This document shows, one piece after another, positions 9,704-41,738 of a stretch of DNA of 64,000 bases. Every line of letters starts with the position of its first letter. Within the stretch, counting starts at the first letter, position 1. The DNA comes from a virus. The notes under the pieces are model-generated. The model was not told the origin of the DNA. It did not search any database and saw only the letters and a program-made list of their open reading frames with translations. The translations under genes and the position numbers were made by a program. The DNA lies in IMG/VR virus record IMGVR_UViG_3300035146_000010, one strand, 5' to 3'.

Positions 9704-10351
9704 ATGAAATGTTTTTATTGTGGATCAAATTGTGATAAAAAATATTCAATAAAAGAATATGTAAAAAAAACGTTTACAAATTATGATATAGTGGCTTGTC
9801 CTGATTCTCAATATGTCTGTGATGATTGTGTTTGGGCATTTGGCAGCAATTCTGAAATACAAATGATAGATGGAGAAATTAGAAATGGAAGTCCCCGTAA
9901 TTATTCCTGGTTTATAACAAAAAATAAAAAAATAGCATTTACTAAAAAGCATATTGAGGAAATAAAATATTTATTATTTCATATCAAAAAAAAACCATTC
10001 AAATTAGTTATTGCAGATTCTGGACAAAAGCATTTATTATTTAGAGCTCCATGGAACTTTGATAAAAATAATTTTATATTGCAGTTTGAGGAACAACAAA
10101 TTATAGTTGATTTGAAGGAATTGGCAAAACGAATATTTATATGTAATAGACTAAGTGCTGCTATAGGAAAAGTAGCAATATTGAATCCTGATAAAGTACA
10201 ATATGCAATAGCTGTTCAAAAATACTGGAATGATTTAATTGAGTATGAGAAATGGCTCAAAATACATATGCAACCATTGTCACAGTTGGCGGTATGGTTA
10301 GCAAAAAATAAACAGGAGGCTCAAAATGAATATCAATCAGTTAACACCTGA
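9704..10351 (+). CDS. csf1: Csf1-like (type IV Cas8-like) protein with N-terminal Cys cluster
   Basis: CFYCGSNC...CPDSQYVCDDC zinc-finger-like N-terminus. About 215 aa. First gene of the csf1-cas11-cas7-cas5 order. Confidence 0.5.
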   Translation: MKCFYCGSNCDKKYSIKEYVKKTFTNYDIVACPDSQYVCDDCVWAFGSNSEIQMIDGEIRNGSPRNYSWFITKNKKIAFTKKHIEEIKYLLFHIKKKPFKLVIADSGQKHLLFRAPWNFDKNNFILQFEEQQIIVDLKELAKRIFICNRLSAAIGKVAILNPDKVQYAIAVQKYWNDLIEYEKWLKIHMQPLSQLAVWLAKNKQEAQNEYQSVNT

Positions 10352-10766
10352 AGAGTTCCGTTTAAAAATAGCAGGGCTATTGGACCCGCTGGGACAAATG
10401 GATGATTTGGGTAAAAAATCAATGGAAGATGAGGTTATAAGATTTGTATCAATATTGCCTGAAGTGTTTGGTGATAATTTGGACCGCAAAACACTATGGG
10501 AACGAATTGGCAATGGACTTGTTTCTTCATTGGCAAAAGCCGGTGGTGATGTTGAACTTTTTGTTAATCATTGTTTGGATTATGTTAAAGCAGATAGTGG
10601 TAAAGCTGCAGCAAATGAAAATTTACATTATTTTATTTCGACATTATCAACAAGAGATAAAGAATGGAAACAACAATTTCTACGTACAATTGAAAAAAAA
10701 CATTATCTTATTATTGTTAAATCCCGTGATACTTGGAATAAAAATAAAAAGGGAGGCACGAAATGA
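10326..10766 (+). CDS. cas11: Cas11-like small helical subunit
   Basis: 146-aa protein that reads as helical. Sits between the csf1-like and cas7-like genes and overlaps both neighbours. Confidence 0.4.
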   Translation: MNINQLTPEEFRLKIAGLLDPLGQMDDLGKKSMEDEVIRFVSILPEVFGDNLDRKTLWERIGNGLVSSLAKAGGDVELFVNHCLDYVKADSGKAAANENLHYFISTLSTRDKEWKQQFLRTIEKKHYLIIVKSRDTWNKNKKGGTK

Positions 10767-11707
10767 ATAAAACAGTAAGACCAAAAGTAAAACGTAGAAA
10801 AAAAGATATAGGAACAGTTAAAGTTCATTGTGTGTCTGAGACTTTGTCCCCATTAACGCACATGATGGAGACAGCTGGAAATGAGTCAATAATCAATAGG
10901 GAAAAGGTTATCCATAATGGTATGGAAAAATGGATACCTGTTTTGTCTGGAAATTCAATTCGTCATAAATTAATTCGTGATTCCGGTATGCATTATCTTC
11001 TTAATGCATGTAGCATGAGAAAGAAAATTGACATTAAACAGGCTAATTTTTTGTTTTATGGCGGTGGATTAACTGAAAGCAGCAACTCTGAGAAAATGAA
11101 AGAAATTGCCGAAATGTATGAATTGTTTCCACTTGTGAGGCTATTAGGGGCAAGTCTTCCGTGGCAAATAGTTGCAGGAAGTCTCATTGTGTTTCGCGGG
11201 AAATTAATTTGTGAAGAAAATAAACATTTTATTTATGAGTTATTGCCCGAAAAATTTGATATTGATTTGAATTGTCAACTGAAATCAAGTGAAGATTTTA
11301 TTCACGCATATCAATATACAAGAGGCGATATTACTCGACATAAGGATGTTGTTGAGATCGTTTCTCAAGATGAATTAGCATCGGATAAAAAAACCGGTTT
11401 AATGATTTATAACGGACAATGCATTATTACCGGATCATTATTTTATCACGGCTTTATCTTGAATAGAATATCGCGTAAAGAGGTCGGTGCCTTTTTTTTA
11501 TCTTTGGAAACATGGCAGGAATCCGGTGCGTTTCTTGGTGGCTATTCAAGAATTGGACATGGTAAATTGAAATTGAACGTCATGATCGAAGACAGCAAGG
11601 ATTTTATTTCCGCCAGCGATATTGACGACTGCATTGACGAATACATTAATCATGTTGAGGTTAATAAAGCCAAGTGTATCGAATGGCTTGATAAAAATTT
11701 TAAGTGA
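10763..11707 (+). CDS. csf2: Csf2 / Cas7-like RAMP protein
   Basis: IPVLSGNSIRHKLIRD (RAMP G-x-S-hR-G/H-xhR type motif) and C-terminal glycine loop GGYSRIGHGKL. ATGA overlap with the upstream gene. Confidence 0.7.
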   Translation: MNKTVRPKVKRRKKDIGTVKVHCVSETLSPLTHMMETAGNESIINREKVIHNGMEKWIPVLSGNSIRHKLIRDSGMHYLLNACSMRKKIDIKQANFLFYGGGLTESSNSEKMKEIAEMYELFPLVRLLGASLPWQIVAGSLIVFRGKLICEENKHFIYELLPEKFDIDLNCQLKSSEDFIHAYQYTRGDITRHKDVVEIVSQDELASDKKTGLMIYNGQCIITGSLFYHGFILNRISRKEVGAFFLSLETWQESGAFLGGYSRIGHGKLKLNVMIEDSKDFISASDIDDCIDEYINHVEVNKAKCIEWLDKNFK

Positions 11708-11715
11708 GGTCGTTT

Positions 11716-12396
11716 ATGGCAATAGAAAATTTTAAAGTAACGGCTTATTTGGTTGCACCAGTGGTGGGGGAAATACCACCACTGGACTCATTGTTGACTT
11801 ATCAGCTTGCATTTTATATGAATACATTCAAATCAAAAAAATATACAAAAGCAACACCTATAACTGAATTTGAACGTTTGCCGATACCGCTTACTGAATA
11901 TGATGTTGGAGGAGATAAAGTTAACTGTTGTTCTGATCCGGTTTATATAATTGAAACAGAATGGCATGATAAATTGGCAAAAAGATTTGAAACAGATATG
12001 CTTAGCACAATCATAGATCCACTAAAGAGAAAAACCATTAATATAGGGGGTGGGTATTTACGTTCAAGATTTCAGACGCTGCATGCTAAAATAATTAGTA
12101 GGGTGGTTTGGTTTGCTAGGGGGGACTCTGAGCAGGCATTACGATTATTGAAATATGTTAACTCGCTTGGTTATTTTAGAAAAATAGGATATGGTATTGT
12201 AAATAAATGGAATGTTGAAATAATAAAGGAAAATTTTTCAATATCCGCGCGGTGCTCCGGGAAAAAAATATTGATGAAGACTCTGCCTGTTTGTGATGCT
12301 ACTCGAAACATGGACGGTATTCGTTATGGATTTGGTGCATACAAACCACCCTACTGGCATCCAGAAAATCAGTGTGAGGTTGTGGTTCCATGTTAA
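11716..12396 (+). CDS. csf3: Csf3 / Cas5-like RAMP protein
   Basis: N-terminal VAPVVGEIPPLDSLLTYQLAF and C-terminal LGYFRKIGYGIVNKW glycine loop. ATG with GAGG RBS. Confidence 0.6.
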   Translation: MAIENFKVTAYLVAPVVGEIPPLDSLLTYQLAFYMNTFKSKKYTKATPITEFERLPIPLTEYDVGGDKVNCCSDPVYIIETEWHDKLAKRFETDMLSTIIDPLKRKTINIGGGYLRSRFQTLHAKIISRVVWFARGDSEQALRLLKYVNSLGYFRKIGYGIVNKWNVEIIKENFSISARCSGKKILMKTLPVCDATRNMDGIRYGFGAYKPPYWHPENQCEVVVPC

Positions 12397-12935
12397 ATGG
12401 TTATTATATAATACAACAATACGCAAATGTGATTCAGGATTATCCATTGTTTTTTACTTTTGCTAAAAAAAATAAATTATGGAAGTATATTTATCCACAC
12501 TATAGGTGGGACGTGTTGCAAATTATAGCACTTGTTTGCCTGTCTCCTGGAACTCTAAATGAAAAATATAATTTTTTACAAAGAGAACTTTATTATTTTT
12601 ATAATAAAATTGTTTGTACTTTTCATTTAAAAAAGAAAAATAAATGCAAACAAAAAAGGAGTATACCAAAACATAAAAATCATTGCGATATTTGTGGAAA
12701 AGATAAATTAGAATATATGACTAAATCATTATTTCCTGGAAAAAAAGTTTGTAATTATTGTTATATGCAGCATAAGCGCAAGTATGTGAATAAATATTAT
12801 GGGCGTCTGATAAAAACATGTGAATTATGTGGAAAAGAAACAAGAACAGGATTATATACAAGTGTTTTTCCTGGAAAAAAAGTTTGTATGAGCTGCTATC
12901 AAAAAGAAATGTATAGAAGGAAAAAAAAAAAATGA
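12390..12935 (+). CDS. Protein with two tandem zinc-ribbon units
   Basis: Repeated C..CGK-x(n)-FPGKKVC..CY units. Start overlaps the csf3 stop (ATGTTAA). Confidence 0.6.
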   Translation: MLNGYYIIQQYANVIQDYPLFFTFAKKNKLWKYIYPHYRWDVLQIIALVCLSPGTLNEKYNFLQRELYYFYNKIVCTFHLKKKNKCKQKRSIPKHKNHCDICGKDKLEYMTKSLFPGKKVCNYCYMQHKRKYVNKYYGRLIKTCELCGKETRTGLYTSVFPGKKVCMSCYQKEMYRRKKKK

Positions 12936-13345
12936 GAGTGGTTTTATATAATGTTGGACGTAATTTAAATCGTGCATATCGTACTTGTTTTAGTTTTGGA
13001 ATTGAAAAATTAATTTTAGTAAATTCACAGGATATAAGTATAAAATGGGAATTGAAAGGAAATCTGTTTGAAGCAAAAAATAAAGTTAAAATAATAGAAA
13101 CTAACATGATGCCATTGATTGATATGCATACAATTGCACTCGAAAATTATTATAAACAATCTATATATAATATCACATGGAACAATCTTGATACTATACT
13201 GATAGGTGGAGAAACGAAAGGGCTCCCTAAATTGATTAGTTGCCAGAAAGCAACAATACCAACAATCAATAATTTTTGTTTGACAGTAGAGGCATCATTA
13301 GCAATTGCCCTGTCGGAATGGAGACGAAATGTTAATACAGTGTGA
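12932..13345 (+). CDS. Minimal SPOUT (SpoU/TrmH/TrmL-like) RNA methyltransferase
   Basis: MRVVLYNVGRNLNRAYRTCFSFGIEKLILV and ILIGGETKGLP...ATIPTINNFCLTVEASLAIALSEW match the N- and C-terminal blocks of TrmL-type enzymes as I recall them. Confidence 0.6.
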   Translation: MRVVLYNVGRNLNRAYRTCFSFGIEKLILVNSQDISIKWELKGNLFEAKNKVKIIETNMMPLIDMHTIALENYYKQSIYNITWNNLDTILIGGETKGLPKLISCQKATIPTINNFCLTVEASLAIALSEWRRNVNTV

Positions 13346-14042
13346 CAAGCATACACAACAGGATTTAGAAATTTGGGATAGTTATGAGGAAGCCGATTTG
13401 ATTTATTATAATAATCATAATATGGTGGAAAAAGAACAAAAAGCTATTGATACTATTATCAATTTTGATAGTGATTATGTTAGTACTTCATGGGGCAAGG
13501 ACTCAACTGTTTTGGTGCATTTGTGTTATAGGGCACAAATTAAAATACCATTGGTGTGGATTATTGTTAAAGATATTGTAAATCCTTATTGTTTTGATGT
13601 TAGAAATTATTTTTTAAAAACTTATAATGTTAATTATTATGAGATAACCGAAAGCAGGTGGTATGATGGTAATCGCTATAGGGCCACAGGTGTTTTAGAA
13701 AATGGTTTTAAAAAAGCAGTTAAACAATTTGGAAAAAAATATATATCCGGTGTACGTGCTGAAGAGTCTGGAATAAGAAAAATGTTAACAAAAATTTATG
13801 GTGTAAAGACAGAAAAAACCTGCCGTCCGTTGGCATATTGGAAACAATCAGATATTTTTGCCTATTTGGCTCATTATCAATTGCCGGTTCATCCAAATTA
13901 CGGGATGTTGGGTGGTGGGAGATATAACCGTGAACATATACGGGTTGCTTCATTGGGCATTAAAAGAGGCGATGCTTTTGATAAATTGCTATGGGAAAAA
14001 GAATACTATCAAAATGAATTAAACAAAATTGGAGGAATATAA
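13329..14042 (+). CDS. CysH-like PAPS-reductase family PP-loop protein
   Basis: STSWGKDSTVLVHLC (PP-loop variant), ISGVRAEESGIRK, and CRPLAYWKQSDIFAYL. ATG after GGAGACGAA. Confidence 0.75.
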   Translation: MLIQCDKHTQQDLEIWDSYEEADLIYYNNHNMVEKEQKAIDTIINFDSDYVSTSWGKDSTVLVHLCYRAQIKIPLVWIIVKDIVNPYCFDVRNYFLKTYNVNYYEITESRWYDGNRYRATGVLENGFKKAVKQFGKKYISGVRAEESGIRKMLTKIYGVKTEKTCRPLAYWKQSDIFAYLAHYQLPVHPNYGMLGGGRYNREHIRVASLGIKRGDAFDKLLWEKEYYQNELNKIGGI

Positions 14043-14043
14043 A

Positions 14044-15285
14044 ATGGTAATGGAAGCACTGCGCACAGACGGCTGGTCAAATTTAATTGCCGGTATCGGT
14101 GTAAAGAAAAAAGATAAAACAGAAAATACATATTTTGTTGAAGATTATATTTTGGAAGATGAAGACTTGTCCGCGTTGTATGATGGAGAAGGACTGGCGG
14201 CAAATATAATTGATGCTGTACCGGATGATATGACACGGGCCGGGTGGACAATAGCAAATGACGAAAAAGAAAAAATACAAAATGAAATGAAAAGGATTAA
14301 AGCGGTATATTATTTAAACAAGGCATTAAAATATGCCCGTCTATATCGTGGGGCTATTGTTGTTATGATTACAGAGCGGGGAGAATTAGACAAGCCTATA
14401 CCGGCTAATCCTGGAAATGTAAAACGCCTGCGTGTATATTCTGCAAAAAGAATAATATTAACATCAACTGATATTGTAGAAGATCCGAATTCAGAATATT
14501 TTGATGACGTTGAAATATTTCATGTTTTAACCCGTTCCGGGAAAATGCTAGATATACATAGATCGCGTTGTTTGTGGTTTGGAGGCGAACTTGTATCTGA
14601 TGATTTTGAATTAGATCTTACCTATCAATATTGGGGACTGTCTACAATGCAAAGAATATGGGCCCGGTTAAAAAATTACGGAGCAGTGGAAAGGGCTGTT
14701 GCAAATTTGCTTTTGGAGTTTAATTTGGGGATATATGAATTTTCTAATTTAGCTGAAATATTAGCTATGAATAAAGAAGAAATGATGAGTGCTGTATACA
14801 CACGGTTAGAAGCTATAAACGCATGCAAGTCTATGTTAAACGCTGTTATGATCGGTGAAGGGGAGTCTTTTACAAGGGACTCTGCGAACCTGTCCGGTTT
14901 AGCGGACATTATAGATAGAATGATGATTAATTTAACCGGTGTTGCAAAGATCCCGGCAACTAAATTATTTCGGCGATCTCCTGCGGGAATGAATGCGACA
15001 GGCGAAAGCGATATAACTAACTATTATGATGATGTGAGTACACAACAGACACAAAAACTTGAACCGGAACTGCAAAAATTAATTAATGTAATCGGAAAAG
15101 CTGTTTATGGCAGCAACAAAGAAAATAAATATACAATTACTTTTAATTCTTTGTGGGAGCCGACTGAAAAAGAAAAAGCCGAAACAAAAAAATTAAATGC
15201 GGAAACACATTCAACTGATATTGCAAATCAAGTTATAGATGCGGAAGAGTCTCGTAAAATAAGGTATCCAGATTTGGAGGTATAG
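14044..15285 (+). CDS. Portal protein (DUF1073-like)
   Basis: N-terminal RTDGWSNLIAGIG..KKDK...LSALYDGEGLAANII..VPDDMTRAGW pattern. Size and position relative to terL also fit. Confidence 0.75.
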   Translation: MVMEALRTDGWSNLIAGIGVKKKDKTENTYFVEDYILEDEDLSALYDGEGLAANIIDAVPDDMTRAGWTIANDEKEKIQNEMKRIKAVYYLNKALKYARLYRGAIVVMITERGELDKPIPANPGNVKRLRVYSAKRIILTSTDIVEDPNSEYFDDVEIFHVLTRSGKMLDIHRSRCLWFGGELVSDDFELDLTYQYWGLSTMQRIWARLKNYGAVERAVANLLLEFNLGIYEFSNLAEILAMNKEEMMSAVYTRLEAINACKSMLNAVMIGEGESFTRDSANLSGLADIIDRMMINLTGVAKIPATKLFRRSPAGMNATGESDITNYYDDVSTQQTQKLEPELQKLINVIGKAVYGSNKENKYTITFNSLWEPTEKEKAETKKLNAETHSTDIANQVIDAEESRKIRYPDLEV

Positions 15286-18477: not shown

Positions 18478-18483
18478 AAAAAG

Positions 18484-18512
18484 TTTCCTTTTTCAATTTA
18501 AAAACGTATAAT
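18484..18512 (+). promoter_or_regulatory. Class B promoter (TTTCCT-17-TATAAT)
   Basis: aaaaaagtttcctttttcaatttaaaaaNgtataatataa is nearly identical at 58456-58497 and similar at 49510-49547. Confidence 0.6.
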
Positions 18513-18643
18513 ATAAGTAAATGGCAACTGTGAAATTAAAATTGGAGGTGATGTCTATTGGATTAAAATAAAACTATAAATTACATACTAACACTTTGTG
18601 TATAAGATTTTAAGATTTTAGTACTTGATGACTCTATGCAGAT

Positions 18644-18737
18644 AGCCGGGTGGCGGAAGTGGAAGACGCGCCAAGGGATTGCCTTGGTGGGGGTAATAAC
18701 AAATAACTCCGTGCAGGTTCGATTCCTGCCCCGGCAA
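18644..18737 (+). tRNA. Class II (long variable arm, Leu-like) tRNA scaffold with a non-canonical anticodon loop
   Basis: Canonical elements: U8, D-arm GCGG-AAGUGGAAGA-CGC with G18G19, and T-arm GCAGG-UUCGAUU-CCUGC. The variable arm has a 5-bp stem. The acceptor is GCCGGG/CCCGGC with an A/A at positions 1-72, followed by A. The anticodon stem CCAAG/CUUGG closes the loop GGAUUGC, which lacks U33. Confidence 0.55.
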
Positions 18738-18861
18738 AGAAAAGTCCAACCGTAGCTGGTCATTGCGGATATGGCTATTAGTACCGGTACTTGTCCGGAA
18801 CAAGTTGCTAGTAAGAAAATAAAAACCTAGACCCGCTTTTTACTTTCGATTTAAACCAGTG

Positions 18862-18906
18862 TTGTTGCAGAGGGTGTTCTTGCCGGTTCGAGTCCGGCAG
18901 CAACAA
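18862..18906 (+). ncRNA. Acceptor-stem/T-arm minihelix (tRNA 3'-half-like element)
   Basis: 7-bp stem ttgttgc/gcaacaa enclosing a 13-nt linker and a perfect T-arm gccgg-ttcgagt-ccggc. No D or anticodon arm. Confidence 0.45.
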
Positions 18907-18941
18907 ATGAGGCGAAAGTCTCCAATTTTAACTTTGTTTTT

Positions 18942-19027
18942 TGTGTCTCCCGGTTAGTTCTGCACACACTAACCCTAGTAAGTTCCGATCAAAAACATTT
19001 TCAAATTTCTACTGACCGGGAGACACA
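18942..19027 (+). ncRNA. Long-range stem (about 17 bp) with a competing internal hairpin, upstream of gene 19055
   Basis: gtgtctcccggt (18943-18954) is perfectly complementary to accgggagacac (19015-19026), and pairing extends on both sides. There is an internal ggttag...ctaacc hairpin. Confidence 0.45.
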
Positions 19028-19054
19028 CACTTAAAAATAATAAAGGATAAATAA

Positions 19055-19780
19055 ATGAAGCTAGCAATAAAAGTTAACAATAAAGAAGAATTTCAAAAAG
19101 TACAAGAAAATATTTTTAAATGGAGTAAAACATTTCAGTGGTATTCAAATAAACTGGCTACGCAAGTGAGCCAGGATTTTAAAGATAGGTTTATACAGGA
19201 TGTCGGGTTTTATCCTTGTTATCCTTGTTATATTTGTCTAGATTTTACAAATAAAACAATGATGCATAGTTATGCTAATAAACGCACTTTGCAAAGCCGA
19301 AAATATATTTTTTTTCCGCATACTTTTGATTTAATACATTTTAATTTTAACTCTGAGCAAATTTGTTCTTACTTAGCAAAAAATAGTTATATTGCTTTTA
19401 AAAAAGAAAAACAATTCGAAAAAGAATATGGAGATGATTGGGAAGACAAAAGTCCTAATTGGGTAGTAGAAATGCGCCCATTATTTGGAAAGGTAATTCC
19501 ATTTGCATATTATTTAGATATATTCAAAAAAATATTTGAATGTGCGGATATTGAATTTGATTATATTCATTTTTATTTAGGTCATTGGGGTATAGAAAAT
19601 ACATCTGGCGATAAAAATTATTCATATAGTTATGCAAATTGGATGATCGATATTTTGCCAAAATCTAAAAAAATTGAAGAGGTTTACGAAATTGAAGAAA
19701 TAGAAGAATCTTTATTAATAGACAGAAAAAAAATTAGACAGGATAATATTATTAATATTCCTAATATAAAATTAAAATAA
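19055..19780 (+). CDS. Hypothetical protein
   Basis: 241-aa ORF with AAGGA RBS. Confidence 0.6.
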   Translation: MKLAIKVNNKEEFQKVQENIFKWSKTFQWYSNKLATQVSQDFKDRFIQDVGFYPCYPCYICLDFTNKTMMHSYANKRTLQSRKYIFFPHTFDLIHFNFNSEQICSYLAKNSYIAFKKEKQFEKEYGDDWEDKSPNWVVEMRPLFGKVIPFAYYLDIFKKIFECADIEFDYIHFYLGHWGIENTSGDKNYSYSYANWMIDILPKSKKIEEVYEIEEIEESLLIDRKKIRQDNIINIPNIKLK

Positions 19781-38595: not shown

Positions 38596-39057
38596 TTAGT
38601 CTATTTTATACCGAATACCTACTATAATTTTATTGTAGGTGATCGGTGCCGGCTTTTCTTCATATTCAAAATAATACACATGTTTGCTAACATAATACTG
38701 CCCTATACTAGAAACAACAATGTGTCCGCACATGTGTTCTACTTCTATAAAAAAGAAATCTAAAAAAGTAACACCTATTCCATATGTGTATTGTTCGTAA
38801 TAGGGACTGTTTTTTAGAAAATCCCCGTCAGTCGGGTAAAACCAGCTCTTCAATCCGCCATAAAAATACGGAGAAAAATATTTAAAATCAGTCCCGTATT
38901 TTATTTTCAGATCGATTGTACCGACAGTATTATGATCATTCATTTCATAATACCGTCCGCATCCTGCATTAAATTCCAGCCATCCGGGAATAACTCCCTG
39001 ATAACTAAATGCGTTTGTTGAAATAAATAATAAAAGTACAAATATTATTTTTTTCAT
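38596..39057 (-). CDS. Secreted beta-barrel-like outer-membrane protein candidate
   Basis: ATG at 39057 with GGAGGA RBS. Signal peptide MKKIIFVLLLFISTNAFS. The mature part is rich in alternating Y/G/aromatic strands. Confidence 0.55.
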   Translation of the reverse strand: MKKIIFVLLLFISTNAFSYQGVIPGWLEFNAGCGRYYEMNDHNTVGTIDLKIKYGTDFKYFSPYFYGGLKSWFYPTDGDFLKNSPYYEQYTYGIGVTFLDFFFIEVEHMCGHIVVSSIGQYYVSKHVYYFEYEEKPAPITYNKIIVGIRYKID

Positions 39058-39192
39058 TTTTGATCCTCCAATTTTTTTAACTTTGATTAAAAATACCGGG
39101 GCATTAAGCCCCGGTATCATCACACTTTTTAAAACATTTTCTGAGGTGTATTTTTGAAACTCCCCGGTTTTGCGGTTGCCCGAGGAAAACCG

Positions 39193-39321
39193 TTAACAAG
39201 ATAAGTGACACATTGCAATAATGGTAACCATTATTACAGACGCTATCAGCGCGGTGATAACTACAGAAGCGATAAATATTTTAATATCAACTTTAACGCT
39301 TTTTTTATCACCTTTTTTCAT
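39193..39321 (-). CDS. 42-aa single-pass hydrophobic peptide
   Basis: GGAGG RBS. MKKGDKKSVKVDIKIFIASVVITALIASVIMVTIIAMCHLSC. Below the ORF-track cutoff. Confidence 0.45.
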   Translation of the reverse strand: MKKGDKKSVKVDIKIFIASVVITALIASVIMVTIIAMCHLSC

Positions 39322-39407
39322 TTTAGACCTCCAATTTTAATTTTTGTCCTGTCTCTTCAGTGCCGGGTGGACAGTTCCGGCAGACGCCCATAAGGGCGTT
39401 TCGACTT

Positions 39408-39572
39408 TTAATGATGTTTCTTTTCTATACATTCGTCATCGTCTTGATCCCAGATTTCCCAGTTCTTTAAACCCAAATCAAAAATCACATCGTAGCAATC
39501 ATGAACTGATGGGAACTCCCCGACAAAAAATCTTTCGTTTGTTTCTTTGTTATATTCCATTAACTCTAACAT
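39408..39572 (-). CDS. 54-aa acidic small protein
   Basis: First ORF after cassette copy C (aaaggagatcagaaATG). Confidence 0.45.
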   Translation of the reverse strand: MLELMEYNKETNERFFVGEFPSVHDCYDVIFDLGLKNWEIWDQDDDECIEKKHH

Positions 39573-39689
39573 TTCTGATCTCCTTTATTAACTTTGTTAT
39601 ATTAATAATATACGGAATAAAGATAATAAAGTAAAGTACTTTTTTATGCATAAGAATAAAAATATATTCGTAAGTACTGGTTTTATGAG
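39573..39689 (-). promoter_or_regulatory. Regulatory cassette copy C (minus strand): two AGTACT boxes at 39673-39678 and 39635-39640, -35 at 39630-39635, -10 at 39607-39612
   Basis: The reverse complement aligns with cassettes at 16699-16811 and 45824-45938. Confidence 0.7.
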
Positions 39690-39692
39690 TGG

Positions 39693-40115
39693 TTATTTAA
39701 CCATTTCAAATATGTTAGAAATTTGGGCATCTTTTTTATCAGATTTCCGTTTCATAGCATCTATTTTTGCGCTTTGTCTAAGAAATGGCTGGGTTGCTTC
39801 GTGGATTCTAATTAGCATTGTTTCTACTATATTATTTGTGTCTTCTTGCAATATAGTTAATTCATTTTCTCTTTTGCGTAGATAATTATATTTTTCTCTA
39901 TTAGAACTAATTTGTTTTTTTAATTTAGAAATTTCATTATTTTTTTGTACAATAATTTGTTGTAATTCTTTTTTAATTTCTTGTATTTGTTTTTTATTTT
40001 TTTCTTGATATTCTTTTTTTGTTTCCTGCCGGCCCTGTTCCCGGCCTTTTTTTATTCCGTCTCTTCTTGCTTTTTTAACCTGCTTTGATATAATTCTAAA
40101 AAATAATTTTTTCAT
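39693..40115 (-). CDS. Basic coiled-coil protein
   Basis: 140-aa ORF with GGAGAA RBS. Confidence 0.55.
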   Translation of the reverse strand: MKKLFFRIISKQVKKARRDGIKKGREQGRQETKKEYQEKNKKQIQEIKKELQQIIVQKNNEISKLKKQISSNREKYNYLRKRENELTILQEDTNNIVETMLIRIHEATQPFLRQSAKIDAMKRKSDKKDAQISNIFEMVK

Positions 40116-40127
40116 GGTTTTCTCCTT

Positions 40128-40472
40128 TTATAAAGTTATCCCGTTTAAAGAAAATTCTGGAATGTTGTCCCCGTCTACGCAGTAAAAAAGATGAAAACAA
40201 TATTTATGAATATTTATATAATTTTCTTTTTTGGGAAAAATCATTATTACTTTTTTATCTGTTCCGAAAAATAAGTTTTTAATATATAATATTTCTTCGT
40301 GTGGCGGATACCGATTTGGCCTCGACAAAGACAAATGCCACCATCTTTTGTCGTCATTTTCTATGTTGCAAGAACAAATCACAAGTAAATTTCCTTTCCG
40401 ATACATAGCCCCATCTGTTCGTTTTTCTATCAGATCAAAATTAGCTTCTTTAATTTTCTGCTCATTTATCAT
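40128..40472 (-). CDS. Hypothetical protein (WWHLSLSRPNRYPPHEE motif)
   Basis: 114-aa ORF. Confidence 0.55.
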   Translation of the reverse strand: MINEQKIKEANFDLIEKRTDGAMYRKGNLLVICSCNIENDDKRWWHLSLSRPNRYPPHEEILYIKNLFFGTDKKVIMIFPKKENYINIHKYCFHLFYCVDGDNIPEFSLNGITL

Positions 40473-40634
40473 ATGTCTAATCCCACTATTTTATATTTTA
40501 GATTTTTTAAATACGGTTTTTGCATATAGTCTTTTGCTCCCTGTTCGCTGTTAAAAGCAACTAAATGATTTGTCCCCTCCCAGCATAGGGGATATATTTG
40601 ATTGTCGAATGAACTTTTAAAAAGAATAAAATAT

Positions 40635-41738
40635 TTATTTTCCATTTTCTCTTCCTACAAACATAACGATTGCAAAAGAAATTGGAGCAATTAAATCTAT
40701 AAATATAGCCGGGAATACACTCAGCCAAAATTGTATCATTTCCGGCTTCCATCTAAAAATAGAATTCATCCACAAATAAAAATCAGGCGGACTTTTTTTA
40801 ACAATTGTTATGTTTTTATTTTTTCTTAAATTAGTTAATTTTTTTAATACATTATTTAATTCTTTTTTTGCGCTGTAGTATCTCCAACGAAAAGCATTAT
40901 ATTGTTTTTTGTTTTTTTCAATATTTTCTTTTGTCGTGTATTGAGATAACACAGATTGTAGTTGTTTTATATCCTCTTTAAGTATCCTGGCCCGTTCCTG
41001 GTATTCCTGTTTTTGTTCCGCATATTCCATATTTTTTATATCATTTTCTGCAATCAATTTTTCCTGTTTGTATTGCAAATTAAGTTTTTCTATGCGGGCA
41101 TTATACTGTCCGGCCACGGTACTGATCATAGAAAATACAGTAACAATAATCCATAATAAAGAAAAAACAAAAATTAAAGCATATTGTTTCTTTTTAAAAA
41201 ACAGTACTATTAATTCAAACGCACTAACAGCAAAAGCAACCATTATGGTTGCTAATAACAAAGACCGGAACGGACTCAAAAATTCCCGGAGCCAGTTGTC
41301 TGAATAATACACAGACATGTACGTGGCTCCTATACCGATAACTAATAATATATATTTCAAAATTGATATCCAGTTATTAAATTTAATAACCGGTTTTTTA
41401 AATTGAGTAACATCTAATTTAACAGTGTCTTTTTTTTGTTTGATTTTATTTACAACTTTTTTAACCGGGAGTTTTTTTATTTTGTCCGGCAGTTGGCTGA
41501 TCGTGAGTTTATTATTTTCAACCAAAAGAAACTTTTTGTTTTTGAGATAGGACAATATTTTGTAAATAGAATTTTTATCCAATCCGGTTTCTTCCTTTAT
41601 ATACGAAAGTTTTGGAATTTTTCCGTATTTTTTAAAATAATATTCTAAAATTTTTTTCATTTTTTCAATATCATTCAATGATATTGTTTTAGGTTCCGGT
41701 TTTTTCATTCTTTTTATTTTTCCTTTAATTGTTTTCAC
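40635..41738 (-). CDS. wHTH-like N-terminal domain fused to a multi-pass membrane plus coiled-coil protein
   Basis: GTG start overlapping the upstream stop (GTGA). N-terminal LSYIKEETGLDKNSIYKILSYLKNKKFLL, then 4 hydrophobic helices, a coiled coil and 2 more helices. Confidence 0.6.
   Translation of the reverse strand: MKTIKGKIKRMKKPEPKTISLNDIEKMKKILEYYFKKYGKIPKLSYIKEETGLDKNSIYKILSYLKNKKFLLVENNKLTISQLPDKIKKLPVKKVVNKIKQKKDTVKLDVTQFKKPVIKFNNWISILKYILLVIGIGATYMSVYYSDNWLREFLSPFRSLLLATIMVAFAVSAFELIVLFFKKKQYALIFVFSLLWIIVTVFSMISTVAGQYNARIEKLNLQYKQEKLIAENDIKNMEYAEQKQEYQERARILKEDIKQLQSVLSQYTTKENIEKNKKQYNAFRWRYYSAKKELNNVLKKLTNLRKNKNITIVKKSPPDFYLWMNSIFRWKPEMIQFWLSVFPAIFIDLIAPISFAIVMFVGRENGK

What the first reader, a model, noticed from the sequence alone, without database searches (positions are those of the whole stretch)
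18644..18737. Canonical class II tRNA body with a non-decoding anticodon loop
The scaffold is textbook:
- U8 is present.
- The D-arm is GCGG/AAGUGGAAGA/CGC with G18G19.
- The T-arm is GCAGG-UUCGAUU-CCUGC.
- A 5-bp variable-arm stem carries an 11-nt loop.
- The acceptor helix is GC-rich and followed by A.

Two features are abnormal. The anticodon stem CCAAG/CUUGG closes the loop GGAUUGC, which has G instead of the universal U33 and can zip up further into a 7-bp stem with a 5-nt loop. Positions 1-72 read A/A.

LeuRS-type recognition does not use the anticodon, so such an RNA might be charged yet unable to decode. Alternatively it could be a decoy for anticodon nucleases or tRNA-targeting defences, or a structured RNA partner for the array-less Csf complex and the SPOUT/PP-loop enzymes encoded 5 kb upstream. 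A class B promoter (18484-18512) lies about 130 nt upstream.
Basis: partly seen in the sequence, partly recalled or inferred. Interest (0 to 1): 0.65.

Follow-up and report, generated by a model that had tools for sequence, protein, structure and literature searches.

The report
Non-decoding tRNA-like phage RNA module
This is a real tRNA-shaped RNA gene in a phage, built on a bacterial leucine-tRNA body but lacking a usable anticodon; related phages conserve only its top half and the RNA just downstream, so it most likely serves as a processing or stability handle (possibly chargeable) for a larger phage RNA rather than as a decoder.

Summary
Window 18644-18737 (+) folds as a class II cloverleaf with U8, G18G19, a canonical T-arm, A73, an A1·A72 mismatch and the loop GGAUUGC (G33). 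ARAGORN calls it tRNA-Asn(AUU). Rfam's tRNA model only just reaches threshold (29.2 vs 29 bits).

The body is bacterial tRNA-Leu(UAA) type and keeps every E. coli-type leucine identity element.

- In one relative (L349) the 5' acceptor strand/D-arm (93%) and the T-arm plus about 125 nt downstream (96%) are retained, but the anticodon/variable region is replaced by 94 unrelated nt.
- A syntenic relative (L341) keeps only the acceptor (with A·A), the T-arm and the box AAG.AAGUCCAACCGUAGCUGG.
- L007 keeps the cloverleaf through compensatory changes but has a 9-nt loop.
- A second anticodon-less tRNA-like minihelix (18860-18906) follows in all three lineage members.

In IMG/VR, 72 distinct phage elements share this tRNA-Leu top half with unrelated middles.

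Best reading: a non-decoding tRNA-derived module. It probably acts as an RNase P/Z-type processing and stability handle flanking a conserved spacer RNA, and may be leucylatable. No link to the Csf cassette was found. Function is inferred, not shown.

The parts
18644..18737 (+). tRNA-like module 1: class II cloverleaf on a bacterial tRNA-Leu(UAA)-type body. It has an A1·A72 mismatch, U(-1) at 18643 able to pair with A73, and no encoded CCA.
   Evidence: Homologues are L349, L007, L026 and L341.
18653..18669 (+). D-arm GCGG AAGUGGAAGA CGC carrying A14, A15, G18G19 and A20a, the leucine identity and elbow elements.
   Evidence: Compared with the identity set in PMC9976931. The 5' acceptor strand plus D-arm (18642-18669) is 93% identical to L349.
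18671..18687 (+). Anticodon-like hairpin CCAAG GGAUUGC CUUGG (G33). It can also form a 7-bp stem with a 5-nt loop. This is the non-conserved, exchangeable part.
   Evidence: L007 keeps the stem through two compensatory pairs but has a 9-nt loop. It is replaced in L349 and absent in L341.
18688..18712 (+). Long variable hairpin (GGGGU/ACUCC, 11-nt loop) ending in U48. Also non-conserved.
   Evidence: U48 is present in 61 of 61 aberrant family members.
18713..18736 (+). T-arm GCAGG UUCGAUU CCUGC plus the 3' acceptor strand CCCGGCA. This is the most conserved part of module 1.
   Evidence: Compensatory changes are seen in L341.
18738..18759 (+). Conserved box AAGAAAAGUCCAACCGUAGCUGG immediately 3' of A73. 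The core AAGTCCAACCGTAGCTGG (18742-18759) is identical in L349 and L341.
18738..18859 (+). Conserved spacer RNA between the two tRNA-like modules. The 160-nt block 18705-18864, which contains it, is 96% identical to L349. GCUGGU (18755-60) can pair with ACCAGU (18854-59). The spacer contains a 19-codon ORF at 18771-18830.
   Evidence: The fold z-score is about 0, so it is not notably structured.
18860..18906 (+). tRNA-like module 2: a 7-bp acceptor, a mini D-like hairpin AGAG-GGUG-UUCU and a T-arm (U)GCCGG UUCGAGU CCGGC(A), followed by A. It has no anticodon or variable arm.
   Evidence: z = -2.3. Analogous second modules occur in L349 (41-nt middle) and L341 (full cloverleaf with a 30-nt loop).
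18909..18922 (+). GNRA-capped hairpin GAGGC GAAA GUCUC directly after module 2.
   Evidence: L349 and L341 each have a different small hairpin at this position.
18943..19026 (+). Long hairpin (12-bp stem GUGUCUCCCGGU/ACCGGGAGACAC, about 60-nt loop) abutting the RBS of ORF 19055. Its membership in the unit is uncertain.
   Evidence: A weak DUF2815-RNA-like match lies at 19017-19057.
18507..18512 (+). TATAAT hexamer, a possible -10 element for the locus. Support is weak.
   Evidence: Not reported by the promoter scan. In L349 module 1 starts 9 nt after an ORF stop codon, so an own promoter is not a conserved feature.

Best explanation
The element is a non-decoding RNA module derived from tRNA-Leu(UAA), not a working tRNA. 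What selection keeps in this phage lineage is the tRNA top half: the acceptor helix with a conserved A1·A72 mismatch and U(-1):A73, the T-arm and, in two of three lineages, the Leu-type D-arm elbow. It also keeps the sequence immediately downstream.

Proposed mechanism:
1. The roughly 400-nt intergenic locus is transcribed with the flanking late genes.
2. The two tRNA-like modules (18644-18737 and 18860-18906) are recognised by the host tRNA-maturation enzymes. RNase P would cut at their 5' ends. RNase Z, RNase E or exonucleases would cut at their 3' ends, possibly followed by CCA addition.
3. These cuts punctuate the transcript and release (a) stable tRNA-shaped RNAs and (b) the conserved spacer RNA of about 120 nt with defined ends.

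The anticodon/variable region is a tolerated, exchangeable appendage. This explains why it carries no anticodon and differs completely between close relatives. Because module 1 keeps the whole E. coli-type leucine identity set, it may also be leucylated.

Shown: the anatomy, the conservation pattern and the compensatory changes. Inferred: cleavage by RNase P/Z, release of the spacer and charging. Unknown: the target of the spacer RNA.
For: **Real, tRNA-Leu-derived RNA**
- ARAGORN hit and Rfam tRNA at 29.2 bits.
- The acceptor and T-arm pattern matches cellular tRNA-Leu(UAA): 171 of 190 metagenome/genome matches carry UAA.

**Conservation pattern**
- L349 is 96% identical over window 18705-18864 (T-arm, box, spacer) and 93% over 18642-18669 (acceptor and D-arm).
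- The neighbouring DenV gene is only 71% nt / 66% aa identical.
- The 43-nt middle is replaced by 94 unrelated nt.

**Syntenic L341 (portal 63% identical)**
- It keeps only the acceptor, T-arm and box.
- It shows three compensatory acceptor pairs and one compensatory T-stem pair.
- It has the same A·A at 1:72 and U(-1):A73.

**Second module**
- A second acceptor-plus-T-arm module lies about 125 nt downstream in all three. Its middle ranges from 12 nt to a full cloverleaf.

**Placement**
- In L349 module 1 starts 9 nt after an ORF stop codon.
- In the wider family the elements sit a median of 70 nt after and 89 nt before co-directional ORFs. They are therefore embedded in operon transcripts that would need processing.

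**Wider family in IMG/VR**
- 72 distinct aberrant elements with 54 distinct acceptor stems, 96.8% of positions paired.
- U48 is present in 61 of 61 although the search pattern did not impose it. There are 59 different middles.
- The same swap of the middle at one conserved locus is seen in L034, L036 and L041, upstream of NinG.

**Established knowledge (own knowledge)**
- RNase P and RNase Z need only the acceptor/T-arm minihelix.
- tRNA-flanking spacers can be functional RNAs, as with 3'ETS-leuZ.

**No alternative machinery in the window**
- The window encodes no integrase, aaRS, CCA-adding enzyme or RNA ligase.
Against: - There are no expression or end-mapping data.
- Only three independent members of the composite locus were found (window, L349 = L371, L341).
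- The 96% identity to L349 could reflect recent exchange rather than long-term constraint.
- Between the window and L341 only the first ~24 nt of the spacer are conserved, and the spacer is not thermodynamically structured (z about 0).
- The A·A at 1:72 and a U(-1):A73 pair could disturb normal RNase P site choice.
- L007 and the gut-phage elements are solitary and lack the box. Spacer release therefore cannot be the general function of the wider family.
- If only processing mattered, retention of the full Leu-type D-arm in the window and L349 would not be required.
Confidence: 0.4

Rival explanations
1. Chargeable tRNA-Leu mimic. The mature module 1 is the effector. It is leucylated by host LeuRS, which ignores the anticodon, but cannot decode. 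It would act as a LeuRS/Leu-tRNA sink, as an amino-acid donor for a non-ribosomal transferase, or as a decoy for toxins that modify tRNA acceptor ends.
For: - Module 1 carries every E. coli-type leucine identity element: A73, A15:U48, G18G19, A20a, U54:A58 and G19:C56 (against PMC9976931).
- The same review states that tRNA-Leu lacking the anticodon and variable arms is still charged.
- In the wider family A73 occurs in 54 of 72 elements and U48 in 61 of 61.
- In L132 a Leu-bodied element follows, by 6 nt, a class II aaRS catalytic-core-only ORF.
Against: - L341 module 1 has lost the D-arm and so the elbow identity elements, yet the locus is conserved.
- Module 2 in the window has no Leu features.
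- No CCA is encoded.
- The effect of the A·A at 1:72 on charging is unknown.
- The D-arm conservation in the IMG/VR set was imposed by the search pattern.
Confidence: 0.2
2. Decaying tRNA-Leu pseudogene(s). A former phage tRNA cluster is degenerating and has no present function.
For: - Non-canonical loop (G33) and a 1:72 mismatch.
- Rfam score only at threshold.
- A relative (L341) has lost whole arms.
Against: - The A·A mismatch, U(-1) and the downstream box are conserved across phages whose portal proteins are 63% identical.
- There are compensatory changes in the acceptor, T-, D- and anticodon stems.
- The segment is 96% identical to L349 while the neighbouring gene is 71%.
- In the wider family 54 distinct acceptor stems are 96.8% paired.
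Confidence: 0.12
3. Decoy or inhibitor for anticodon nucleases or other tRNA-targeting defences. It would bind the enzyme through the tRNA body while presenting an uncleavable loop.
For: - Phage tRNAs are known to escape anticodon nucleases through loop changes (PMC10264068).
- The intact L-shape core would allow binding.
Against: - The anticodon arm, which such nucleases read, is not conserved at all among relatives.
- No tRNA-Leu-specific defence nuclease is indicated by any result here.
Confidence: 0.08
4. DNA-level element. The conserved T-arm plus box would be a recombination, regulatory or packaging site. The conserved D-arm and T-arm sequences would act as homology arms for cassette exchange.
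For: - The middle is swapped wholesale between otherwise near-identical flanks.
- The box is an exact 18-mer shared by three phages.
- The spacer has no notable RNA structure.
Against: - Compensatory changes preserve RNA helices rather than DNA sequence.
- There is no integrase in the window.
- The T-loop and elbow nucleotides are those of a folded tRNA.
Confidence: 0.07
5. RNA partner or substrate of the array-less type IV-B-like Csf complex, or of the SpoU and CysH-like enzymes encoded at 9704-14042.
For: - The cassette is real.
- Type IV-B complexes are array-less (own knowledge).
- The SpoU protein gives a faint TrmL-like hit (E = 0.009).
Against: - No co-occurrence. L346 has the cassette but no module in 21 kb. 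L341 has the module but no cassette in 21 kb.
- L349/L371 shows the locus next to DenV, with no cassette in the 6.5 kb seen.
Confidence: 0.05
6. A genuine decoding tRNA, for example Asn AUU/IUU, or a tRNA with an edited or modified loop.
For: - ARAGORN assigns tRNA-Asn(att).
- Some Leu-bodied phage elements do carry a canonical Asn loop with G73 (L073, L132).
Against: - G33 in place of the near-universal U33 (own knowledge).
- A73 is not the Asn discriminator (own knowledge).
- The loop is not conserved in any relative.
- There is a 1:72 mismatch.
Confidence: 0.03

Closest known systems
Bacterial tRNA-Leu(UAA)
   Same: - Acceptor, D-arm (GUGGCGGAAnuGGnAGACGC) and T-arm (GCAGG UUCGAnU CCUGC).
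- U8, A14, A15:U48, G18G19, A20a and A73.
- A long variable arm.
   Different: - No Leu anticodon, and G33.
- A1·A72 mismatch.
- No CCA, and a conserved non-tRNA 3' extension.
- Relatives replace or delete the anticodon and variable arms.
tRNA-spacer-derived sRNAs (e.g. E. coli 3'ETS-leuZ; own knowledge, not retrieved here)
   Same: A conserved RNA segment lies directly 3' of a tRNA(-Leu)-shaped unit in one transcript. Its ends would be set by tRNA-processing enzymes.
   Different: - Here the flanking 'tRNAs' are themselves non-decoding mimics.
- The unit is phage-encoded.
- No sponge target is known.
Minimalist tRNA-Leu substrates of LeuRS (Larkin et al. 2002, as summarised in PMC9976931)
   Same: Acceptor, D-arm and T-arm with A73 suffice for leucylation. 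The anticodon and variable arms are dispensable.
   Different: Those are engineered RNAs. Charging of this natural element is untested.
tmRNA
   Same: A tRNA-like domain without an anticodon that is charged by an aaRS which ignores the anticodon, with a large insert where the anticodon arm would be.
   Different: - ARAGORN finds no tmRNA.
- No tag ORF or pseudoknot series.
- Leu-type rather than Ala-type body.
- The D-stem is retained.
Bacterial/phage Y RNA (YrlA) tRNA-like domain (PMC4201824)
   Same: A non-decoding tRNA mimic with T- and D-arm elbow, found in phages and reported as a substrate of tRNA enzymes.
   Different: - In YrlA the RNA termini lie at the Ro-binding stem, not in the acceptor helix.
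- There is no Rsr gene here and no Rfam match.
Phage tRNAs with anticodon-loop mutations that evade host nucleases (PMC10264068)
   Same: Phage-encoded tRNA bodies with altered anticodon loops.
   Different: Those tRNAs still decode. Here the loop is non-decoding and not conserved.
Engineered 'tRNA scaffold' RNAs and aptamer-tagged tRNAs (own knowledge; PMC7590224 listed)
   Same: A tRNA top half carries an arbitrary RNA in place of, or beside, the anticodon arm. tRNA enzymes process and stabilise it.
   Different: Those are man-made. The natural elements here are only inferred to work this way.
DUF2693-FD RNA (Rfam RF02926)
   Same: A phage sRNA with the topology of window module 2: a 7-bp closing stem, a small hairpin and a 5-bp stem with a 7-nt loop that abuts the 3' strand.
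   Different: No sequence similarity, and its loop is not a T-loop. Its function is also unknown.

Membership tests
Canonical decoding (elongator) tRNA | 7-nt anticodon loop with U33 and a purine at 37, presenting a conserved anticodon | tested here: not met
   The loop is GGAUUGC with G33. Relatives have a 9-nt loop (L007), a 94-nt unrelated insert (L349) or no arm (L341).
Canonical decoding (elongator) tRNA | Fully paired 7-bp acceptor stem | tested here: not met
   A1·A72 mismatch, conserved in the window, L349 and L341.
Canonical decoding (elongator) tRNA | Covariance-model score above the Rfam RF00005 gathering threshold | tested here: inconclusive
   Not reported in the whole-window gathering run. 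It scored 29.2 bits against 29 on a 461-nt slice.
Canonical decoding (elongator) tRNA | L-shape core: U8:A14, R15:Y48, G18G19 with the T-loop U55C56, U54:A58 | tested here: met
   All of these are present in the sequence.
Bacterial tRNA-Leu (LeuRS substrate, E. coli-type identity) | A73 discriminator | tested here: met
   A at 18737. The identity set is taken from PMC9976931.
Bacterial tRNA-Leu (LeuRS substrate, E. coli-type identity) | A15:U48, G18G19, A20a and D/T-loop tertiary pairs | tested here: met
   The D-loop is AAGUGGAAGA, U48 is at 18712 and the T-loop is UUCGAUU.
Bacterial tRNA-Leu (LeuRS substrate, E. coli-type identity) | Leucine anticodon (NAA/NAG) | tested here: not met
   The loop GGAUUGC holds no Leu anticodon in register.
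Bacterial tRNA-Leu (LeuRS substrate, E. coli-type identity) | Actual aminoacylation with leucine | not testable with these tools
   Needs an in vitro LeuRS assay.
tmRNA | tRNA-like domain plus an internal tag reading frame and pseudoknots, detectable by ARAGORN | tested here: not met
   ARAGORN reports no tmRNA in the window. Rfam gives no tmRNA hit.
tRNA-Sec | Score above the RF01852 gathering threshold, a UCA anticodon and an 8/5 acceptor/T helix | tested here: not met
   23.4 bits against 47, and no UCA. An 8-bp acceptor is possible only by counting U(-1):A73 across the A·A mismatch.
Bacterial Y RNA (YrlA) | tRNA-like domain closed at the acceptor end, termini in a Ro-binding stem, and an rsr gene nearby | tested here: not met
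   The termini lie in the acceptor helix. There is no Rfam hit and no Ro/TROVE-like protein among the scanned ORFs.
tRNA-flanking spacer sRNA (ETS/ITS type) | Conserved RNA segment directly flanked by tRNA-shaped units on the same strand | tested here: met
   The block 18705-18864, which contains the spacer 18738-18859, is 96% identical to L349. The box is identical in L341. The spacer lies between modules 1 and 2.
tRNA-flanking spacer sRNA (ETS/ITS type) | Release by RNase P/Z/E and a trans-acting function | not testable with these tools
   Needs RNA end mapping and target identification.
Phage attP tRNA fragment | Adjacent integrase and identity to a host tRNA 3' part | tested here: not met
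   No integrase family hit in any scanned ORF. A full 5' half is present, and relatives differ in their acceptor sequence.
Type IV-B (Csf) associated RNA | Co-occurrence with the csf1-3/cysH cassette | tested here: not met
   L346 has the cassette without the module. L341 has the module without the cassette, each within 21 kb.

The most novel reading that the evidence does not exclude
Phages of many lineages, from this marine-type phage to human-gut Bacteroidales-type phages, may carry a so far undescribed class of RNA. Each has a tRNA-Leu(UAA) top half: acceptor, Leu-type D-arm, T-arm, U48 and mostly A73. This would act as a natural 'tRNA scaffold', matured by tRNA enzymes and possibly leucylated, or charged by phage aaRS-core proteins as the L132 gene pair hints. 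The anticodon/variable position would hold an exchangeable cargo RNA (aptamer, antisense or decoy), swapped by recombination between the conserved D- and T-arm sequences. In the window's lineage two such modules additionally excise a conserved spacer sRNA.
Probability: 0.3. Interest if true: 0.8.

Novelty: new variant of a known kind. Interest (0 to 1): 0.6.

Why it matters
Phage tRNA genes are usually read as codon-usage helpers or as escapes from anticodon nucleases. This element shows a different use of the tRNA fold. The decoding end is discarded or swapped, while the enzyme-recognition end is kept under selection.

If the processing-handle or scaffold reading is right, it has three consequences:
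- It gives a natural precedent for the engineered tRNA-scaffold trick.
- It explains many 'tRNA-???' and pseudo-tRNA calls in phage genomes.
- It points to a pool of small phage RNAs, the variable middles and the conserved spacer, whose targets are unknown.

It also offers a directly testable case of an RNA that LeuRS could charge but the ribosome could not use.

Tried and rejected
**Searches that led nowhere**
- blastn of the whole intergenic region against INPHARED phages: no match.
- The search for related loci with the adjacent 241-aa ORF and with the portal protein in IMG/VR: nothing.
- Homologues of the 241-aa ORF: only itself.
- Pattern searches for the box returned only chance matches in coding DNA, apart from L349.
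- Most portal relatives (L343-L348, L363, L365) and the DenV relatives L370 and L372 lack the locus. L371 proved identical to L349. Only three independent members are known.
- Literature searches found no description of this family.

**Interpretations considered and rejected**
- Sequencing error in the loop. Relatives show the region is not conserved at all, and the A·A mismatch is conserved.
- Archaeal intron-containing tRNA, suggested by the MAG label 'Nitrosopumilaceae'. The D-arm is bacterial Leu-type, and the hairpin is too short for a bulge-helix-bulge intron.
- RNase P RNA CR-I/P4 likeness of GAAAAGUCC. No complementary 3' strand is present.
- An HDV-like ribozyme after the tRNA. No P1 partner is present and Rfam gives no hit.
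- tmRNA or permuted tmRNA (ARAGORN and Rfam negative).
- An antisense target of the two loops within the window. None was found.
- attP. No integrase is present.
Full report
**Setting.** The window is an A+T-rich (about 30-38% G+C) tailed-phage genome.
- It encodes a portal protein (14029-15285) and a Mu-F-like head protein, DUF2213/Pa193_gp24-like and other capsid-module genes downstream, and its own replication genes.
- No integrase, aaRS, CCA-adding enzyme or RNA ligase was found.
- The public record labels the contig a Nitrosopumilaceae archaeon MAG. The phage gene content and a bacterial-type tRNA-Leu body make mis-binning likely.
- The finding lies in a 577-nt gap (18478-19054) between a 113-aa ORF and a 241-aa ORF.

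**Check of the observation.** Every sequence statement is correct.
- Acceptor AGCCGGG/CCCGGCA has A·A at 1:72.
- U8 is present. The D-arm is GCGG-AAGUGGAAGA-CGC with G18G19.
- The stem CCAAG/CUUGG closes GGAUUGC, so position 33 is G.
- There is a 5-bp variable stem with an 11-nt loop, a T-arm GCAGG-UUCGAUU-CCUGC, A73 and no CCA.
- The MFE structure is the cloverleaf, with the hairpin zipped to 7 bp and a 5-nt loop (z = -2.3).
- ARAGORN reports it as the only tRNA in the window, as tRNA-Asn(att).
- Rfam is borderline. Nothing appears at gathering threshold on the whole window. tRNA-Sec scores 23.4 bits against 47. RF00005 scores 29.2 bits against 29 on a short slice.
- The element is about 60% G+C in 30% G+C surroundings.
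- The proposed promoter is only a TATAAT at 18507-18512 and was not called by the scan.

**What the body is.**
- The D-arm and T-arm are those of bacterial tRNA-Leu.
- A pattern joining this acceptor, D-arm and T-arm matched 190 places in metagenomes and genomes. Of these, 171 carry the canonical UAA anticodon loop.
- Module 1 has all the E. coli-type leucine identity elements listed in the review PMC9976931: A73, A15:U48, G18G19, A20a, U54:A58 and G19:C56.
- That review also states that tRNA-Leu without its anticodon and variable arms is still charged.

**Relatives of the element.**
- *L007 (IMG/VR).* It has the same acceptor and T-arm. D-stem G10-C25 becomes A-U, and anticodon-stem A-U/A-U becomes G-C/G-C. 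These are compensatory changes. Pair 1:72 is A-U, but the loop is the 9-nt CAAAUAAUA.
- *L349 (= L371).* It is 96% identical over window 18705-18864 and 93% over 18642-18669. The neighbouring DenV gene is only 71% nt / 66% aa identical. The 43-nt anticodon-plus-variable region is replaced by 94 unrelated nucleotides.
- *L341.* This phage has a portal 63% identical and the same gene order, with a syntenic gap. It retains only U(-1), A·A, a 6-bp acceptor with three compensatory pairs, a T-arm with one compensatory pair, and an identical box ...GCAAAG-GAAGUCCAACCGUAGCUGG. The D- and anticodon arms are gone.
- Taken together, the anticodon arm is the least conserved part. The 1:72 mismatch, the T-arm and the 3' extension are the most conserved.

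**The larger locus.**
- About 125 nt downstream lies a second tRNA-like unit (18860-18906). It has a 7-bp acceptor, a 4-bp mini hairpin with loop GGUG, a T-arm with UUCGAGU, and a following A (z = -2.3).
- L349 and L341 have a second unit at the same place. Its middle is 41 nt in L349 and a full cloverleaf with a 30-nt loop in L341.
- The spacer between the units is nearly identical in the window and L349. It can be closed by GCUGGU/ACCAGU (AGCUGG/CCAGCU in L341). Its fold is otherwise no better than shuffles.
- It matches no Rfam family.
- No other phage in IMG/VR carries the box.

**A wider phenomenon.**
- After removing duplicates there were about 7 ordinary tRNA-Leu and 72 distinct elements whose middle is not an anticodon arm.
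- These 72 have 54 different acceptor stems that are 96.8% paired, A73 in 54 of 72, and 59 different middles.
- U48, which the pattern did not impose, is present in 61 of 61.
- They sit inside operons, a median of 70 nt after and 89 nt before co-directional ORFs.
- L034, L036 and L041 carry three different middles at one locus upstream of NinG. This repeats the window/L349 pattern.
- Caveat: the D- and T-arm conservation in this set is partly a product of the search pattern. The comparison with cellular genomes used a different pattern.

**Interpretation.** The data fit a non-decoding tRNA-derived module.
- Its selected surface is the acceptor/T-arm (with or without the D-arm elbow). By established knowledge this is the part read by RNase P, RNase Z, CCA-adding enzyme and LeuRS.
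- In this lineage, two modules bracket a conserved spacer, and in L349 the first module starts 9 nt after a stop codon.
- The most economical mechanism is therefore tRNA-type punctuation of an operon transcript. It would release stable tRNA-shaped RNAs and a spacer RNA with defined ends, as with known tRNA-spacer sRNAs (own knowledge).
- I give this a confidence of 0.40.
- The shown steps are anatomy, conservation and compensatory change. The cleavages, charging and the role of the spacer are inferred.
- A chargeable, non-decoding Leu mimic is the main rival (0.20) and is not exclusive of the first.

**Other rivals.**
- Pseudogene decay (0.12) is contradicted by the conserved mismatch, the box and the compensatory pairs.
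- An anticodon-nuclease decoy (0.08) is weakened by the non-conserved loop.
- A Csf/SpoU/CysH partner (0.05) is weakened by lack of co-occurrence. The cassette is real: Csf1, Csf2 and Csf3 hits at E = 4e-12, 7e-11 and 7e-8, far below curated cut-offs, plus SpoU and PAPS-reductase-like proteins and 47-51% identity to the L346 cassette. However, L346 lacks the module and L341 lacks the cassette within 21 kb.
- A true decoding tRNA is very unlikely (0.03).

**Novelty.**
- Literature searches in the held library found general notes on tRNA-like candidate RNAs in phages (PMC10690425), on anticodon-loop escape mutations (PMC10264068) and on Y-RNA tRNA mimicry (PMC4201824).
- None describes a Leu-type top half with an exchangeable middle, or the two-module locus.
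- I rate it a new variant of a known kind (tRNA mimic / tRNA-derived ncRNA).

Noticed in passing
window 39343-39406 (-): Type II hammerhead ribozyme, 40.7 bits against a gathering score of 37 (E = 7e-5). It lies in the short minus-strand block 38596-41738, next to DUF7694 and HTH proteins.
   Followed up: partly
window 9704-14042 (+); L346 11303-15650: Array-less type IV-B-like cassette in a phage: Csf1-like, Csf2-like and Csf3-like proteins, a zinc-ribbon protein, a SpoU methylase and a CysH/PAPS-reductase-like PP-loop protein. It sits just upstream of the portal gene here. In L346 it sits between the portal gene and Mu-F.
   Followed up: partly
window 18860-18906 and L343 91-150: Anticodon-less tRNA-like minihelices (acceptor, short linker or mini hairpin, T-arm) recur in this phage group. 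Their topology resembles Rfam DUF2693-FD RNA, which was found at L036 2697-2745 (76 bits).
   Followed up: partly
L132 (element on the minus strand of the locus; Rfam tRNA hit at 1945-2048): A Leu-bodied class II RNA with an Asn-type loop CUGUUUA and G73 lies 6 nt after a 272-aa ORF. That ORF is a class II aaRS (D/K/N) catalytic core without an anticodon-binding domain (PF00152, E = 8e-16). The RNA lies 26 nt before a 2OG-Fe(II) oxygenase. This may be a dedicated charging pair.
   Followed up: partly
L034 98-180; L036 3600-3676; L007 2871-2961: Gut-phage tRNAs with expanded anticodon loops (16 nt, UUGCGCAAAUAAUUGG; and 10 nt). The 8-mer CAAAUAAU is shared between the L034 loop and the 9-nt loop of L007.
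   Followed up: no
window 18771-18830; L341 about 13477-13610: A conserved GCGG-N-A-N-AUGGC motif opens a short ORF in the spacer: MAISTGTCPEQVASKKIKT* in the window and MALMGDCSPF... in L341. It is unclear whether this is an RNA motif or a micro-protein.
   Followed up: no
window 18690-18700 vs L349 module 2: The 11-mer GGGGTAATAAC is shared between the variable hairpin of window module 1 and the middle of L349 module 2. This suggests shuffling of insert pieces between modules.
   Followed up: no
window 18943-19057: A long hairpin (12-bp stem, about 60-nt loop) ends at the RBS of ORF 19055. A weak DUF2815-RNA-like match (17.3 bits, E = 1.5) covers 19017-19057. It may be a cis-regulatory leader.
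   Followed up: no
whole window: The contig is deposited as a Nitrosopumilaceae archaeon MAG (proteins PVI88_00175 etc.). It is a tailed phage with a bacterial-type tRNA-Leu-derived RNA, so it was probably mis-binned.
   Followed up: partly
L084, L232, L236, L251: One family member type carries AAGGAG-N9-AUG inside its middle, opening a 15-codon frame that runs through the T-arm. This may be coincidence or a translated insert.
   Followed up: no
L279 7780-7857 (MAG: archaeon isolate S5B12_HD70): The one cellular-genome match with a non-Leu loop. It has a Leu-type body, the loop CUCGAGA (anticodon CGA) and G73.
   Followed up: no
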